From: Ostreococcus lucimarinus
Lineage: Eukaryota
DNA: 64,000 bases
Strand: one strand, 5' to 3'
NCBI GenBank assembly: GCA_000092065.1
Contig: CP000590.1
Part shown: piece by piece, positions 12,676 to 57,415 of the stretch
Layout: each line of letters opens with the position of its first letter
Numbering within the stretch: the stretch's first letter is position 1
Notes under the pieces: generated by a model
The model's database searches: none
What the model was told of the DNA's origin: nothing
Seen by the model: the letters and a program-made list of their open reading frames with translations, nothing else
Position numbers and translations under genes: made by a program

Positions 12676-13683
12676 TCAACGTTTCGCCGCCGGAGCGCCG
12701 AAAAGGTCTTTTAAAATCTCAAAAGACACAAAACGGATAGAATTTTGCGGCACAACCTTGAGTGTATTCGCCGCCCATCCGCGGAAGAAACCTTTCACGC
12801 CCTCAGTCCGCGCTATTGTCGTGATGGCGTCGTACATCCCGTTGTAAGTTTTGCCCTTCATTTGCATGCGTCGCCGAATGGTGTCGAGCGGGTAGCACAC
12901 GGTGGCGCTAAACGTGCCCGAAGCCCCACCGACGACCAAGTTAGACACCCTATCTTCCTTACCGTTTTCGCCATAGTACATCTTCTTTGCCATGTCGTAC
13001 GACGCAAAGTTAATCGCCGCGTAAGGGGCTATGCCAGCCAACGTCGGCCCGAGACCTTTGTAGAGCGCGCCGACGCCCTCGGTGCGGTACACCGTTCCAA
13101 AGCAGTGCATCATCCCGTTATACCCATGATTCGGTAGCGCCAAGCGTAACCTCACGGTGTCTAACGGGTGCGTGATGGCTGTTCCCGTCATACCCGCCAA
13201 AGCGCCCGCCAAAAGGCGCTGCGGTACCCCAAGCTTGCCTTGTTCGTCCGCCAACAGCGACTTGTAGTAATCGTTAGACGCCAACTGCGCCGCCGCGTAC
13301 GGCGCCACGCGAATGACGTTCACCCCGTTCCCTTTCCAGAAACTCAATATCCCCTCCTCGGCGTAAATCTTTCGAAACGCCTGCCCGACGCTCGTGTACG
13401 CCGTCGCCGACGTCCCGCTCGACGCCATCGCCTGGACTTGAAACAGCAGCTTGATCCGATCCAACGGCGCGCTCGCCGTCCGCGCGATGATTCCCGCGCC
13501 GCCGCCCGCGGCGACCGACCGGGATCCATCCAGCACCGCTAACGCGCGCTCCGCGATCGCGCTCGCCGCGAACGGCGCCTCTCGCGCCGTCGCGCGTCGC
13601 GCGTCCTCGCGTCGGGTCGCGCCGGTGGCGGCGCTTTTCGTCGCCGCCCATCGGCGCGCACGCGCGGCGGCGTCCCCGTCCAT
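12676..13683 (-). CDS. Mitochondrial carrier family (SLC25) protein, most similar to the CoA/adenine-nucleotide carrier subgroup
   Basis: Three carrier repeats with P-x-D/E-x-x-K/R signatures: ASAPLDRIKLLFQVQ, ITHPLDTVRLRLAL and VCYPLDTIRRRMQM. The first ATG is at 13683; the ORF-track start at 13788 is a TTG. Confidence 0.8.
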   Translation of the reverse strand: MDGDAAARARRWAATKSAATGATRREDARRATAREAPFAASAIAERALAVLDGSRSVAAGGGAGIIARTASAPLDRIKLLFQVQAMASSGTSATAYTSVGQAFRKIYAEEGILSFWKGNGVNVIRVAPYAAAQLASNDYYKSLLADEQGKLGVPQRLLAGALAGMTGTAITHPLDTVRLRLALPNHGYNGMMHCFGTVYRTEGVGALYKGLGPTLAGIAPYAAINFASYDMAKKMYYGENGKEDRVSNLVVGGASGTFSATVCYPLDTIRRRMQMKGKTYNGMYDAITTIARTEGVKGFFRGWAANTLKVVPQNSIRFVSFEILKDLFGAPAAKR

Positions 13684-13832
13684 GGCCGTCGATCGCTCGC
13701 GCCGCGACGTTCGCGCGTCCTCGAGCGCGCGCGCGGTCGAGCGCGCGCCGCGCGTCGTCGTGTGCGCGCGGCGCGATTCTATCCACAACGCGTCGGGACG
13801 AAAAAGCGCACTCCGTCGCGCGCGATCGCGCC

Positions 13833-17232: not shown

Positions 17233-17490
17233 GCGATCGCGCTCGCCGCGGCGTGTACACTTTTTCCTTTGTTAATACCGACGTAATACCACGTGTACGA
17301 ACGACGTAATACCCCGCGCGCGAACGCATCGCAACGAAACTACGCGGCGCGCGCTTTGATTGATTGGCGATTGTGACTAGTATGGCGTAATTACACAGTT
17401 TTCGTACTCTGCGGGTAAATACGGCCGCGACGTCGCGTCGGGCCGAAAGAAGAGAAGTCGTCTCGAGAAGGCGAATTTTTCGTCTCAATT

Positions 17491-18345
17491 CTATTCCGGG
17501 TTGATGACCGCCTTGATCTCGTCGTACATCACGAGCACGAGCGCACCACCGACGCCACGAAGAACGTTGGAGAAGGCACCCTTGAAGAAGGCACCCATAC
17601 CTTCTTGCGCATAAATCTTGACGAAGGCGTCCACGGTGCCGCTGTACAACTTCTTGCCCGCGCCAGAGTTCATCATCAAGCGACGACGAACAGTGTCGAA
17701 GGGGTAGGAGAGAACACCAGCCGCGTTGGTAGCGACTTGGGCCACGATGAACTTGAAGATGAAGGAAGAATCCTTGGTGAGGAGCGCACCCTTACCGGTG
17801 TCGTAGAGACCGAAGTAAGAACCGCGGTACACGATGATACCTTGCACGGAGACGCCGAAGCCTTGGTAGAGCGCCATCGGGCCGGAGCGCCTGGCAATCT
17901 TGGACAAGCAGTCGACCAAACCGGTGAATTCACGGTCGTTAGCCTTGCCGACATCGGCAGCGAGACGCGTACGCGCAAAATCAAGCGGGTAAACAATCAA
18001 CAAAGAACCGGCACCGGCCAAACCGCCCGAAGCCATGTTGACGGCGAAAAACGGCCAAAACGCGTCCTTCGGCGAGTAGCTCGGGAACAAACCCTTGATG
18101 GTATCCTTGAACGCAAAGTTGAACGCTTGCGTCGGGAAGTAACGCACGATGTTCGCGGTGTTACCTCTCCAGAACGAACCGAAACCTTGCTCGGCGCTCA
18201 CGCGCGTGAAGCAGTTGACGATGCCCGTGTATCGCGGCACTTCGCCCGACATGATTCTCGGGTTCGCGTCTTGCGTTTGAATCAAAAGTTTCACGCGTTC
18301 GATCGGCGCCGTGGCCGTCTTCGCGATGGAACCAGACACTCCACC
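17491..18345 (-). CDS. ADP/ATP translocase (mitochondrial adenine nucleotide translocator), exon 2 of 2
   Basis: [25 protein letters not shown]...RRRLMMNSG is the ANT signature (RRRMMM). The ORF-track 'M' at 18339 is a GTG. The frame continues up to an AG acceptor at 18346-18347 (tttgatgcgcgcag|GGTGGAGTG). Confidence 0.85.
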
Positions 18346-18684
18346 CTGCGCGCATCAAAACCAGCCAGTTTTCCGTCAGTCTCGAGTCCCTCGCGCGTCG
18401 TCTCGCGCGCCCGCGCGCGCGTCCGGATTGACTTTCCCATCATCCTTCGCATTTCCCATCTCACGGCGCGAATCACCCCCAGACTACGTCGAATCCCCCG
18501 CGCGCGACATTTATCTCGCGCCGCCCGATCGCCGCGATCGCGCCGCGTGCGTCGCCACCATCGCCGTCCTCGACGCGCGCGCGACCTCCCTCGCGCGCCC
18601 ATTCCGCGTCCAACCATCGCGCACGAATCTTCGCGCCCGCGCCGTCGCCCGCGTTTCCGTCGAGATCGCGTCGAGCGCGCGCAC

Positions 18685-18837
18685 CGCGGCGAGATCCTTC
18701 AAAAACGACGTCAAGTCGAACTCCTTCTTCGCCGCCGCCGCGAACGGCTTCGCGGCGACCGGCGCGCGCGCGCGATCGAATCGTCCGACCGCGGATCGCG
18801 CGAAACAATCGGCGTAAAATTCACGGTTGAGGGCCAT
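18685..18837 (-). CDS. ADP/ATP translocase exon 1 (presequence plus the start of helix 1)
   Basis: From the ATG at 18837 the exon reads MALNREFYADCFARSAVGRFDRARAPVAAKPFAAAAKKEFDLTSFLKDLAA, followed by the donor GTGCGC. Splicing to exon 2 gives FLKDLAA|[21 protein letters not shown], which matches the canonical ANT N-terminus ([26 protein letters not shown]). The intron 18346-18684 is 339 nt with a CTGAC branch point 28 nt before the AG. Confidence 0.75.
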
Positions 18838-18920
18838 GACGCGCGGGACGGGAGCGGTGCGTGGAGTGCCGCGCCGGCGCTCGCGCGCGCGATCCATCTT
18901 GCGCGGGGGTGGTGGCGTGT

Positions 18921-19004
18921 GTCCGACCGACCGACCGAGCGCACTGGGCAAACAGTCACGCGCTGGGCAAACAGTCACGCGTCGGTCGGTCGGTCGGTCG
19001 GTCG
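18921..19004. promoter_or_regulatory. Inverted repeat (GTCCGACCGACCGACCGAG / TCGGTCGGTCGGTCGGTCGGTCGC) flanking a 2x 19-bp tandem repeat (CTGGGCAAACAGTCACGCG), in the ANT / acyl-CoA synthetase divergent promoter
   Basis: Read directly from the sequence. The arms are about 20 bp, and the two direct copies are at 18943-18961 and 18962-18980. The element lies between the start codons at 18837 (minus strand) and 19110 (plus strand). Confidence 0.55.
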
Positions 19005-19109
19005 CGACGCCCGCGCGGCGGCAGAGCGCGGCGCGCGCGACGCGCGCGCACGACGCGCGCGGCGACGACGACGACGACGACGACGACCGCCGCGTCGTCC
19101 GCGCGCGCG

Positions 19110-51304: not shown

Positions 51305-51745
51305 TTAAATCCCGCCCCCCGAGCCGAAATCGATGAGACCCAAATAATCATCCTTAATCGTCGCGATGCAGAAAATGTCGTTCGCGTCGATGCGCATGCC
51401 GACGATGCGCACTCGCACGGATGCGTCGCGTTGGATTCTAATCTGCTGGTCGTCGCTCACGTAACAATTTTCCCCCGAGCTATCAAACTGCATGTCCTCC
51501 GTGATGAGCGCGTTCGACACGAACAACTGCAGCGGCCCAGCCTCGGCGAAGAATCCAAACTTATTCACCTGCGTCACAACCGCGTCCATGACCTCGCCCT
51601 TGAACGGGCGAAACACGACACAATCGTACTTGATGTGAAACTTCGCTCGCGCCGTGCCGTCGTCCGTCACCACGCCTTCGCTCACCTCCGCCAGCCGCGT
51701 GACCATGACGATGAACCCATACCTTCCCGAGCACGTGCCCTCGAC
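51305..51745 (-). CDS. RPB7: RNA polymerase II subunit RPB7, exon 2 of 2
   Basis: VEGTCSGRYGFIVMVT...FRPFKGEVMDAVVTQVNKFGFFAEAGPLQLFVS...IRVRIVGMRIDANDIFCIATIKDDYLG is colinear with Rpb7 (EGTCTGKYGFVIAVT...FRPFKGEVVDAVVT...). The acceptor is the CAG at 51746-51748. Confidence 0.8.
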   Translation of the reverse strand, partial: VEGTCSGRYGFIVMVTRLAEVSEGVVTDDGTARAKFHIKYDCVVFRPFKGEVMDAVVTQVNKFGFFAEAGPLQLFVSNALITEDMQFDSSGENCYVSDDQQIRIQRDASVRVRIVGMRIDANDIFCIATIKDDYLGLIDFGSGGGI

Positions 51746-51930
51746 CTGCGATCGTTCAAGCGACCATCACTCGCGTCAGTCACCTCTTTCACGCCTTCTA
51801 TCCTTTCGCCGCGCGTCGCGCGCGCGCCTTCTATCCTTCGTTGTCCGCGGCCGTCTTAGGGTTCACCCGCGCGCCAGACGTCCTCGACGCCGCCGCGCCT
51901 CTCCCTCGCTTCGCTCGAGCGCCGCCGCAC

Positions 51931-52029
51931 CTCGTGTCGCAGTTTCTCCTCCAGCACCGCCTTCATCCTCGCCCCGAAGTGTCGCGGTTCGAGCGTGATG
52001 TTACGCTCGAGGTTGACGTGAAAGAACAT
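51931..52029 (-). CDS. RPB7: RNA polymerase II subunit RPB7, exon 1
   Basis: MFFHVNLERNITLEPRHFGARMKAVLEEKLRHE matches the Rpb7 N-terminus (MFFHI.LEH.I.LHPRYFGP.L...KL..EV). The donor is GTGCGG. The intron 51746-51930 is 185 nt with a CTGAC branch point 30 nt before the AG. The spliced product is 179 aa. Confidence 0.75.
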
Positions 52030-55943: not shown

Positions 55944-56955
55944 TCACGCGGATAGTTTGGCGTCGCGCTCTTCGTGTTCCCACGGGGCGTCGCCGACTTG
56001 GTAGCCCCCTGCGCGGAAGCTTCGCAAGTAGTCCAACACGTAGCCGTTTTCGATGTTGTTCGGCTCAATGCCGAGATCGGAAAAACCGAGGCTGTCGGCC
56101 CGCTTGACGTAATCTCGGCTTTGAGCGTCGATGTACGATCGCGTCAAGCCCAACGGGGTGGGCATGGGGAACGGTACGCGTCGCAAAAGCCACTCGTGCG
56201 GACACGAGAGCGCCTTCATGATGAAACTCGGGATGTACGCCGTCGACTTGCGCGTGCGAATGGTTTTAAGAACCATCTTCGCAAGTTCGTCAAAAGTATA
56301 CACCTTATTCCCCGCGAGCTCGTACGTTCGCCCGCTCGTCAACTCGTCGTGGACGATTTGACGAATCGCCACCGCGACGTCATCCACGAACACGGGTTGG
56401 TGCTTGGTGTCGCCGCCATCGATGATAGGCACCGCTGGATACTTGCGCGAATGCTCGCCGAAAATGTTCAAGAATCTATCTTCGACGCCCACTATTTTGG
56501 CCGGCCGCACTATCGTAGCTGAAGGGAACGCCTCCCGCACCGCCGCCTCGCCGGCGGCTTTTGATCTGTAATACGCACTCGGGTGGTCTTCCTCGGCCCC
56601 CAAAGCGCTCACGTGAACCAGTCTACGCACGCCCACGTCGGCGCAAATCTCCGCCAATTTCTTTGGAAACGTCACGTTGACGTCTTCGAACGAAAAGTTA
56701 CGCGTCTCCCACTCTCGACCCACCATGTTGATGACGACGTTGCTCCGCTCTACGGCGTATCGAATCGTCTCCTCGTCTCTGATCCCGTAATCCAACTGCA
56801 CAATCTGCCCGAGGTCTCCCATCACTTTGAGATGTTGACGATCATTCTCCGAGCATCGCGTGGGTAGAATCATGCGCGACCCGCTCTTGGCGACGTGATG
56901 GACGACGTATCGTCCCAAAAAACCCGTCGAGCCGAAAACCGTGCACGTGATCCCG
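55944..56955 (-). CDS. NDUFA9: Complex I 39-kDa subunit NDUFA9 (NAD(P)-binding Rossmann, SDR-like), exon 2 of 2
   Basis: [92 protein letters not shown] is colinear with human NDUFA9 ([31 protein letters not shown]...MGDLGQ...NVVINLIGRDWETKNF). Confidence 0.85.
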
Positions 56956-57212
56956 CTGTTCGTCATCAAAAATCCCATTCGTCAGTCTCTCTGCTCGTCG
57001 GCGTCCACCGGCGACGACTCGCACGAGCGTCGTGCACCGACTCTCGACGCGATTTCCACGCCGGCGCGCCTTTGCGTCGCCGCGTCGCGTCGTCGCCGCT
57101 TTACTCGCGTCCTCAAACCTATCGCCCCGCGCTCGCTCGCGTCCAGTCCACCCGCGTTCGCTCGTCGCGCGCGATCGCGCGTCGCGTCGCGTCACCGATC
57201 GCTCGCGCGCAC

Positions 57213-57415
57213 CTGAACGACGACCGTCCGCCCGTGCCGACCGCGTCGCTCGTCACGCTCGGCGGTGGAACTTTGAAATCTTTGCCCGGTTTGATGCTCA
57301 TCGCGCGCGCGCTCGCGAAGAGCGCGGGGAGCGCCTGCGTGGACGCGCGCGCGTCGGTGACTCGCCACCGCGCGGCGGCGGACGTCGCCAAGCGTCGAGC
57401 GAGCGCGCGCGACAT
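57213..57415 (-). CDS. NDUFA9: NDUFA9 exon 1 (mitochondrial presequence)
   Basis: MSRALARRLATSAAARW...IKPGKDFKVPPPSVTSDAVGTGGRSSF followed by 'ag', then the donor GTGCGCGCG. The phase-2 splice to the acceptor aacag|C at 56955 yields [21 protein letters not shown], matching human [21 protein letters not shown]. The intron 56956-57212 has a CTGAC branch point 27 nt before the AG and contains the ORF-track pseudo-start ATGGGATTT. Confidence 0.7.

What the first reader, a model, noticed from the sequence alone, without database searches (positions are those of the whole stretch)
17491..18837. The ADP/ATP carrier needs a spliced 51-codon 5' exon that the ORF track misses
The long ORF starts at a GTG and begins mid-helix ([19 protein letters not shown]). 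339 bp upstream, an ATG-initiated exon encodes a presequence ending ...EFDLTSFLKDLAA, then a GTGCGC donor. Splicing to the CAG acceptor at 18346-18348 recreates the canonical ANT N-terminus (FLKDLAAGGVS...). The intron has a CTGAC branch point 28 nt upstream of the AG. The same GTGCG donor, CTGAC branch and CAG acceptor recur in the RPB7 and NDUFA9 introns.
Basis: partly seen in the sequence, partly recalled or inferred. Interest (0 to 1): 0.5.

Follow-up and report, generated by a model that had tools for sequence, protein, structure and literature searches.

The report
Ordinary intron in algal ADP/ATP carrier

Summary
On the minus strand, a 51-codon ATG exon (18837..18685) is followed by a 339-nt phase-0 intron (18684..18346; GTGCGC donor, GACTGACG branch motif, CAG acceptor). 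Exon 2 runs 18345..17491. The spliced 335-aa product is a full-length ADP/ATP carrier: E=1e-106 to bovine AAC1, and 92% identical over its full length to the annotated O. tauri ANT.

A transcript-like public contig (Logan SRR12718072) joins 18685 directly to 18345, with 1012/1012 identical bases. The annotated O. tauri gene and three further Ostreococcus lineages have an intron at the same codon boundary with the same signals. Exons are conserved against O. tauri (71% and 84%). The intron is not (51%, against 47% for shuffles).

The window is O. lucimarinus CCE9901. Its GTGCGTG / ACTGAC intron consensus was published in 2008, and an EST study lists its adenine nucleotide translocase among intron-containing clusters.

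Caveats:
- Motif counts alone are not above chance.
- "Presequence" is unproven.
- A non-conserved in-frame ATG lies 20 codons upstream.

Verdict: correct gene model, already known, low interest. Its only practical value is as an example of truncated eukaryotic gene calls in metagenome catalogues.

The parts
18685..18837 (-). Exon 1 coding part: ATG plus 50 codons, MALNREFYADCFARSAVGRFDRARAPVAAKPFAAAAKKEFDLTSFLKDLAA
   Evidence: Translation. The O. tauri exon-1 peptide maps exactly here, E=1e-19. 71% nucleotide identity to O. tauri exon 1, against 47% for shuffles. The last 30 nt are present in spliced contig L001.
18346..18684 (-). Spliceosomal intron: 339 nt, phase 0, four in-frame stops
   Evidence: Absent from L001, and GT..AG is the only canonical junction placement. 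51% identity to the O. tauri intron, which is about shuffle level. Same position in five Ostreococcus lineages. No Rfam family inside. Not a repeated element in the window.
18679..18684 (-). 5' splice site GTGCGC
   Evidence: Fits the published atypical consensus GTGCGTG of O. lucimarinus introns outside chromosome 2 (PMC2483917). Sister lineages have GTGCGT or GTACGT.
18374..18381 (-). Branch-site motif GACTGACG (branch A inferred at 18376)
   Evidence: This is the extended motif reported for 66.5% of EST-confirmed non-chromosome-2 introns. ACTGACG lies 27-30 nt from the 3' end in all five lineages. Use as the branch point is inferred, not shown.
18346..18348 (-). 3' splice site CAG
   Evidence: All five lineages end in CGCAG.
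17491..18345 (-). Exon 2 coding part: GGVSGSIAK...AVINPE plus the TAG stop (17493..17491)
   Evidence: Three Mito_carr repeats in the spliced product. E=1e-106 to bovine AAC1. Identical to L001.
17364..17490 (-). 3' UTR as far as the transcript contig reaches. TGTAA lies at 17395..17391.
   Evidence: L001 runs to 17364. TGTAA as the green-algal poly(A) signal is my own knowledge and was not tested here.
18895..18897 (-). Upstream in-frame ATG: a possible alternative start that would add MDRARERRRGTPRTAPVPRV
   Evidence: Present in sister strain L018 but absent from O. tauri, L013 and Bathycoccus. The transcription start site is unknown.
18619..18624 (-). Second in-frame GTGCGC: a potential alternative donor that would insert 20 residues into helix 1
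   Evidence: Found in the motif scan. The frame was checked in the read-through translation. L001 does not use it, and no orthologue has the insertion.

Best explanation
This is the nuclear gene for the mitochondrial ADP/ATP carrier (ANT/AAC, SLC25A4-6 family) of Ostreococcus lucimarinus CCE9901. It is transcribed from the minus strand and interrupted by one spliceosomal intron near its 5' end.

The pre-mRNA is spliced from the GTGCGC donor at 18684 to the CAG acceptor at 18346. The branch point is presumably the A of GACTGACG at 18376. Splicing joins a 51-codon first exon in phase 0 to the long ORF.

The resulting 335-aa protein has a ~40-residue N-terminal extension followed by a complete six-helix, three-repeat carrier. 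Without exon 1 the protein would lack the first half of transmembrane helix 1.

Shown: the exon boundaries, removal of the intron in a transcript-like sequence, conservation of the structure across the genus, and carrier family membership.

Inferred: the branch-point nucleotide, the start codon (18837 rather than 18897), mitochondrial import, any processing of the N-terminal extension, and ADP/ATP exchange activity.
For: - Coordinates and reading frames.
- Family: the spliced product gives E=1.3e-106 to bovine AAC1 (1okc) aligned from residue 43, and E~1e-88 to yeast AAC2/3. Pfam Mito_carr matches three times.
- Orthologue: 92% identity at 100% coverage to O. tauri "Adenine nucleotide translocator 1" (CEF99364.1 / XP_022839793.1 / OUS43338.1), with the same MALNREFYA...FLKDLAAGGVSGS N-terminus.
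- Transcript: Logan contig L001 matches the spliced model at 1012/1012 bases, and only the 18685|18345 placement gives GT..AG.
- O. tauri gene: its annotated model has a 305-nt intron at the same codon boundary, with GTGCGT, ACTGAC and CAG.
- Genus: three more Ostreococcus lineages show the same position and signals.
- Conservation profile against O. tauri: exon 1 71%, intron 51%, exon 2 84%.
- Organism: four window ORFs exactly match O. lucimarinus CCE9901 XP_ records.
- Literature: GTGCGTG and (G)ACTGAC(G) are the consensus for this species (PMC2483917). An adenine nucleotide translocase is listed among intron-containing EST clusters (PMC2367439 Table S2).
Against: - L001 is chimeric. Its first 178 nt are AT-rich and atpA-like, so it covers only 30 nt of exon 1. 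I could not establish whether the run is RNA-seq.
- No full-length transcript of this exact allele was found. The 335-aa product is not in the 15-billion-protein collection, and an exact junction search of JGI contigs found nothing.
- The splice motifs on their own are not enriched over chance in the window.
- The start codon is ambiguous because of an in-frame ATG at 18897 in a good context.
Confidence: 0.95

Rival explanations
1. Same splice, different start. Translation begins at the upstream in-frame ATG (18897), giving a 355-aa protein with a further Arg-rich 20-residue N-terminus.
For: There is no stop between 18897 and 18837, and both ATGs have a purine at -3 and G at +4. Sister strain L018 keeps the upstream ATG. 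Transcript-derived ORFs of a related lineage (P0002, P0005) also extend 9 codons upstream of MALNREF.
Against: The extension is not conserved. O. tauri, L013 and Bathycoccus have no in-frame upstream ATG, whereas MALN(R/K)EFYA is conserved. The O. tauri annotation starts at MALNREF. The 355-aa product is not on record. The transcription start may lie downstream of 18897.
Confidence: 0.1
2. The main donor is the second in-frame GTGCGC at 18624, giving a carrier with 20 extra residues (VRALDAISTETRATARARRF) between DLAA and GGVS. Alternatively, both donors are used.
For: The same hexamer as the used donor occurs there, in phase 0, with no stop before it.
Against: L001 uses 18684. No orthologue has an insertion there. 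The insertion would split transmembrane helix 1 as aligned to bovine AAC1. The O. tauri exon-1 homology ends exactly at 18685.
Confidence: 0.02
3. There is no splicing. The ORF alone is translated from the GTG at 18339 (282 aa) or the first ATG (253 aa), as metagenome gene callers annotate it.
For: The 282-aa and 253-aa products are what public pipelines record, on hundreds of contigs.
Against: Those are prokaryote-style calls made on a eukaryotic nuclear genome. The product would lack the first half of helix 1. A spliced sequence exists. Exon 1 is conserved as coding sequence while the intervening DNA is not.
Confidence: 0.01

Closest known systems
Ostreococcus tauri adenine nucleotide translocator 1 gene (CEF99364.1 / XP_022839793.1; OUS43338.1 'MC family transporter: ADP/ATP')
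   Same: The protein is 92% identical over its full length. The gene has the same two-exon structure, with a phase-0 intron at the same codon boundary (DLAA|GGVS) and the same GTGCG / ACTGAC / CAG signals. The divergent AMP-binding neighbour gene is also shared.
   Different: The intron is 305 nt rather than 339 nt, and the two introns are essentially unalignable. Exon 1 is 49 codons rather than 51.
Bovine AAC1 (PDB 1okc) and yeast AAC2/AAC3 (4c9g, 4c9j)
   Same: Full-length alignment with E=1e-106 to 1e-87. The three-repeat carrier fold and the PIERVK signature are shared. The residues aligned with bovine K22, R79, Y186 and R279 are identical, and the arginine triplet is conserved (the residue roles are from my own knowledge).
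   Different: The alga has an N-terminal extension about 38 residues longer than the bovine protein. Its hexapeptide is RRRLMM rather than RRRMMM, as in the O. tauri, Bathycoccus and related green-algal orthologues retrieved.
Strong-signal intron class of Ostreococcus lucimarinus outside chromosome 2 (Irimia & Roy 2008, PMC2483917)
   Same: The donor fits the GTGCGTG consensus at 6 of 7 positions, and the extended branch motif GACTGACG is present. The branch motif sits at a near-constant distance from the 3' splice site: 27-30 nt in five lineages, and 25-29 nt in the three introns of this window.
   Different: Nothing of substance. At 339 nt the intron is longer than the species median of 111 nt given in that paper's Table 2.
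Bathycoccus prasinos ANT gene (L011/L012 and 51 metagenome contigs)
   Same: An orthologous carrier (77% identity) with a single 5' phase-0 intron and the same AMP-binding neighbour.
   Different: The intron lies 10 codons further upstream (KKEV|DPLG). It is about 560 nt long and AT-richer, with a GTGAGT donor and no ACTGAC motif in the last 45 nt shown.

Membership tests
Mitochondrial ADP/ATP carrier (AAC/ANT, SLC25A4-6 subfamily of the mitochondrial carrier family) | Three tandem ~100-residue mitochondrial-carrier repeats | tested here: met
   Pfam PF00153 Mito_carr matches in 3 stretches, E=6.8e-68. The first repeat starts at residue 44, so it needs the end of exon 1.
Mitochondrial ADP/ATP carrier (AAC/ANT, SLC25A4-6 subfamily of the mitochondrial carrier family) | Closest similarity is to bona fide AACs rather than to other SLC25 members | tested here: met
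   E=1e-106 to 1e-87 to bovine, yeast and Thermothelomyces AAC structures. The next-best solved carriers (UCP1/UCP2, oxoglutarate carrier) give E=1e-19 or weaker.
Mitochondrial ADP/ATP carrier (AAC/ANT, SLC25A4-6 subfamily of the mitochondrial carrier family) | AAC hallmark arginine-rich hexapeptide (RRRMMM in most AACs) | tested here: inconclusive
   The sequence is RRRLMM, aligned with bovine RRRMMM. The arginine triplet is kept and the first Met is Leu. The same variant occurs in the O. tauri, Bathycoccus, Dolichomastix and Micromonas-like orthologues. The strict motif is not met; a conservative lineage variant is.
Mitochondrial ADP/ATP carrier (AAC/ANT, SLC25A4-6 subfamily of the mitochondrial carrier family) | Substrate-site residues (bovine K22, R79, Y186, R279; roles from my own knowledge of the 1OKC literature) | tested here: met
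   The aligned positions are identical in the phmmer alignment to 1okc.
Mitochondrial ADP/ATP carrier (AAC/ANT, SLC25A4-6 subfamily of the mitochondrial carrier family) | ADP/ATP exchange activity, with carboxyatractyloside or bongkrekic acid sensitivity | not testable with these tools
   This is a biochemical property.
Canonical U2-type spliceosomal intron of the Ostreococcus strong-signal class | GT...AG ends with the GTGCGTG-type donor | tested here: met
   The intron runs GTGCGCG...CAG. The consensus is from PMC2483917.
Canonical U2-type spliceosomal intron of the Ostreococcus strong-signal class | ACTGAC / GACTGACG branch motif near the 3' end | tested here: met
   GACTGACG lies at 18381..18374 with 29 nt after CTGAC. 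The motif is conserved in position in five lineages.
Canonical U2-type spliceosomal intron of the Ostreococcus strong-signal class | Precise removal from the transcript | tested here: met
   L001 lacks exactly 18684..18346. Caveats: the contig is chimeric and the library type is unknown.
   Read from the sequence, residues 1-42 contain 8 Arg/Lys but also 5 Asp/Glu. This is not a classical presequence composition. The last 9 residues of exon 1 align with helix 1 of the mature bovine carrier.
   This needs N-terminal proteomics or import assays.

The most novel reading that the evidence does not exclude
The single 5' intron of the ANT gene may be one ancestral Mamiellales intron that shifted by exactly 10 codons (30 nt, phase 0 kept) between Bathycoccus (KKEV|DPLG) and Ostreococcus (DLAA|GGVS). 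That would be a clean case of intron sliding. The alternative is loss in one lineage and independent gain next door, in a highly expressed gene where a 5' intron is kept by selection. The evidence here shows only that each position is fixed within its genus (5 Ostreococcus lineages; 51 Bathycoccus contigs and 2 genome assemblies). It does not say how the difference arose.
Probability: 0.1. Interest if true: 0.3.

Novelty: already known. Interest (0 to 1): 0.08.

Why it matters
Scientifically it matters very little. This is a housekeeping gene with a normal intron in a sequenced, annotated model picoalga. The orthologue in O. tauri is annotated with exactly this structure, and the splice signals were described in 2008.

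The practical point concerns annotation. Public metagenome catalogues hold this abundant alga's ANT as a truncated 282-aa "GTG-start" protein in about 850 blocks of the collection, always as the 282-aa product on the contigs examined. The correct 335-aa product is absent from a 15-billion-sequence collection. This illustrates how prokaryotic gene callers systematically damage eukaryotic genes in metagenomes.

Tried and rejected
1. Motif statistics as evidence. The donor/branch/acceptor combination is not enriched in the window (9 3'-modules against 14.9 +/- 3.9 expected), and a gapped pattern search found nothing useful. I did not use this as support.
2. Something hidden in the intron. Rfam at E<=1 finds nothing in 18346..18684. 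The only sub-threshold hits (mir-341, SECIS_2) lie in the promoter hairpin at 18909..19014.
3. Introner or repeat element. The intron has no other copy in the window, only short GC-rich low-complexity matches.
4. A conserved intronic element. An exact 12-mer, TGGGAAAGTCAA (18439..18428), is shared with the O. tauri intron but is absent from the L013 and L016 lineages, so I did not build on it.
5. More transcript evidence. An exact 39-nt junction search of JGI metagenome/metatranscriptome contigs gave 0 hits. A codon-degenerate junction search gave 51 contigs, all Bathycoccus.
6. The deposited CCE9901 gene model. Thirteen candidate products (full, long-start, alternative-donor, exon 2 only, partial starts) were looked up by exact sequence. 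Only prokaryote-style calls were found. Two neighbour-gene look-ups did not return the NCBI chromosome. How GenBank models this gene therefore remains unseen.
7. Population variation. Eight metagenome copies are at least 99.8% identical to the window, so they are uninformative for conservation.

Full report
**What is in the sequence**

The gene lies on the minus strand. The mechanical ORF list gives a 282-aa ORF (17491..18339) that starts at a GTG. Reading upstream in the same frame gives GGT GGA, then the CAG at 18348..18346, and then a TGA at 18357..18355, so the ORF cannot be extended.

An ATG at 18837 opens 51 codons (MALNREFYADCFARSAVGRFDRARAPVAAKPFAAAAKKEFDLTSFLKDLAA). These end at 18685 and are followed directly by GTGCGC. 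The interval 18684..18346 is 339 nt, carries four in-frame stops, has GACTGACG at 18381..18374 (29 nt follow CTGAC), and ends in CAG. All the coordinates and sequence strings in the finding are correct.

**Is it more than chance?**

The motifs alone are not. In the 64-kb window, CTGAC-N20-32-CAG occurs 9 times against 14.9 +/- 3.9 in dinucleotide-preserving shuffles. GTGCG occurs 290 times against 356.

The weight comes from other evidence.

- **Homology of the spliced product.** The 335-aa product aligns to bovine AAC1 (1okc) with E=1.3e-106, starting at query residue 43 (SFLKDLAAGGV against bovine [11 protein letters not shown]). It aligns to the yeast and Thermothelomyces AACs with E of about 1e-88. 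Pfam finds three Mito_carr repeats, the first starting at residue 44. The ORF-only product would begin ten residues before the PIERVK signature and so would lack the first half of helix 1.
- **Exon 1 on its own.** The 49-residue exon-1 peptide of O. tauri, searched alone against the whole window, hits exactly 18837..18685 with E=1e-19.

**Direct evidence for the splice**

The closest protein cluster includes P0003, encoded on a 1,190-nt Logan contig from run SRR12718072 (L001). Nucleotides 179-1190 of that contig equal the last 30 nt of exon 1 joined directly to exon 2 plus 127 nt of 3' UTR. The match to the spliced model is 1012/1012 identical. Of the two junction placements the sequence allows, only 18685|18345 gives GT..AG.

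There are caveats. The first 178 nt of L001 are foreign: AT-rich and encoding an ATP-synthase-alpha-like peptide. The contig is therefore an assembly or library chimera and covers only the end of exon 1. I also could not establish the library type. Even so, precise loss of a GT..AG interval is a splicing signature.

**Comparative evidence**

- **O. tauri.** The best full-length hit is the annotated O. tauri ANT (92% identity, 100% coverage) with the same N-terminus. Its deposited gene model spans 1,304 nt for a 332-aa product. The single 305-nt intron sits at the same codon boundary (DLAA|GGVS) and shows GTGCGT, ACTGAC 27 nt from the end, and CAG.
- **Other Ostreococcus lineages.** Three further lineages recovered from metagenome contigs (L018, L013, L016) have the intron at the same place, with lengths of 339, 210 and 299 nt. 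Their donors are GTGCGT, GTACGT and GTGCGT. ACTGACG lies 29-30 nt from the 3' end, and all end in CGCAG.
- **Conservation profile.** Against O. tauri, exon 1 is 71% identical and exon 2 is 84%. The intron (51%) and both flanks (50-53%) sit close to shuffle level, whose means are 47-48%. That is the profile expected of coding exons around a neutral intron.
- **Transcript-derived proteins.** Sister-lineage proteins from transcripts (P0002, P0005, P0229) also read ...FLKDLAAGG(V/I)SGS straight through.

**Organism and prior knowledge**

Four long ORFs of the window are identical to O. lucimarinus CCE9901 proteins XP_001420128.1, XP_001419954.1, XP_001419961.1 and XP_001419968.1, all on a 613,585-bp record.

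For this species, Irimia & Roy (2008, PMC2483917) reported three features of EST-confirmed introns outside chromosome 2: the atypical donor consensus GTGCGTG, ACTGAC in 87% of them, and GACTGACG in 66.5%. The ANT, RPB7 and NDUFA9 introns of this window all carry GACTGACG.

Lanier et al. (2008, PMC2367439) list "adenine nucleotide translocase" (CL59Contig1) in their table of intron-containing EST clusters for this species.

I could not see the deposited CCE9901 CDS for this gene. Thirteen candidate products were absent from the protein collection apart from prokaryote-style calls, and neighbour look-ups returned only metagenome contigs.

**Mechanism and open points**

This is ordinary U2-type splicing of a phase-0 5' intron.

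- **Inferred, not shown:** the branch nucleotide, the start codon, import into mitochondria, any processing of the N-terminus, and transport activity.
- **Start codon.** An in-frame ATG at 18897 would add 20 residues. It is absent from O. tauri, L013 and Bathycoccus, whereas MALN(R/K)EFYA is conserved, so 18837 is the better-supported start. The transcription start site is unknown.
- **Alternative donor.** A second in-frame GTGCGC at 18624 is a possible alternative donor, but L001 does not use it, and using it would insert 20 residues into helix 1.
- **"Presequence".** The label is not established. The extension has five acidic residues, and its last nine residues belong to the mature carrier's helix 1.
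- **RRRMMM hallmark.** The AAC hallmark RRRMMM reads RRRLMM here and in the related green-algal orthologues retrieved.

**Verdict**

Both the observation and the interpretation are correct, but the feature is ordinary and already known at the level of the orthologue's annotation and the published intron consensus.

The one practical lesson concerns catalogues. Public metagenome collections hold this gene as a truncated 282-aa call in about 850 blocks of the collection, and every contig examined showed the 282-aa call. The correct product is not on record.

The mildly curious side observation is that Bathycoccus has its single 5' intron 10 codons upstream of the Ostreococcus position.

Noticed in passing
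window 52029..51745 (minus strand): The RPB7 gene has a 33-codon first exon (52029..51931) and a 185-nt intron (51930..51746), with GTGCGG, then GACTGACG, then N29 ending in CAG. Splicing gives ...KLRHE|VEGTCSGRYGF, which matches human POLR2G across the junction.
   Followed up: partly
window 57415..56955 (minus strand): The NDUFA9-like gene has a first exon at 57415..57213 (ending in phase 2) and a 257-nt intron (57212..56956), with GTGCGC, then GACTGACG, then N25 ending in CAG. The junction reads ...GRSSF-S-GITCTVFG, parallel to human ...SSVSGIVATVFG.
   Followed up: partly
L011/L012 2501..4113; L019-L069: In Bathycoccus the ANT gene also has one 5' phase-0 intron (~560 nt, GTGAGT donor), but it lies 10 codons upstream of the Ostreococcus position (KKEV|DPLGFFKDLAAGGVS). 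This was consistent in 50 metagenome genomic contigs. L060 is a spliced Bathycoccus transcript. It could reflect intron sliding, or loss plus gain.
   Followed up: partly
window 18439..18428 (minus strand, inside the intron): An exact 12-mer, TGGGAAAGTCAA, is shared with the otherwise unalignable O. tauri intron, at a similar distance (~50-60 nt) upstream of the branch motif. It is absent from two more distant Ostreococcus lineages, although L016 keeps a related TATGAGTTGGG...GTCAAACGAAT. It could be residual homology or a small intronic element.
   Followed up: partly
window 18921..19000: The divergent promoter region between the ANT gene and the AMP-binding (acyl-CoA synthetase-like) gene holds two tandem copies of GCGTGACTGTTTGCCCAG (18980..18963 and 18961..18944). 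They are flanked by inverted (CGAC)n / (GTCG-type) tetranucleotide runs that can form a hairpin. This explains the sub-threshold mir-341 and SECIS_2 Rfam hits.
   Followed up: no
L001 1..178: The transcript-like Logan contig is chimeric. Its first 178 nt are AT-rich and encode an ATP synthase alpha-like peptide ([26 protein letters not shown]...), probably organellar. The joint contains a 24-nt perfect palindrome (TCAAACACAAAGCTTTGTGTTTGA).
   Followed up: no
window 17391..17395 (minus strand): A TGTAA pentamer lies 27 nt upstream of the point where the transcript contig ends (17364). This fits the green-algal poly(A) signal (my own knowledge) and implies a 3' UTR of about 127 nt.
   Followed up: no
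window 12676..13788 (minus strand): A second mitochondrial-carrier-family gene (Mito_carr, called as 335 or 370 aa on metagenome contigs) lies about 4 kb from the ANT gene. O. tauri also has a second Mito_carr gene near its ANT (L002 11074..11955).
   Followed up: no
L070 15658..22445 (ENA ERZ27284522 k141_476851): One metagenome contig shares the window's gene order up to about 15.6 kb of the locus. It then continues with different genes (FAD_binding_4, Beta-lactamase, RNase_H/RVT_3) instead of the ANT region. This is either a strain rearrangement or a misassembly.
   Followed up: no
window 18291..18617 (minus strand) and the equivalent positions in L003-L010 and L071-L079: Metagenome pipelines call a spurious 108- or 128-aa ORF inside or across the ANT intron and exon 1, with no Pfam hit. 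This is a by-product of running prokaryotic gene callers on this high-GC eukaryotic DNA.
   Followed up: no
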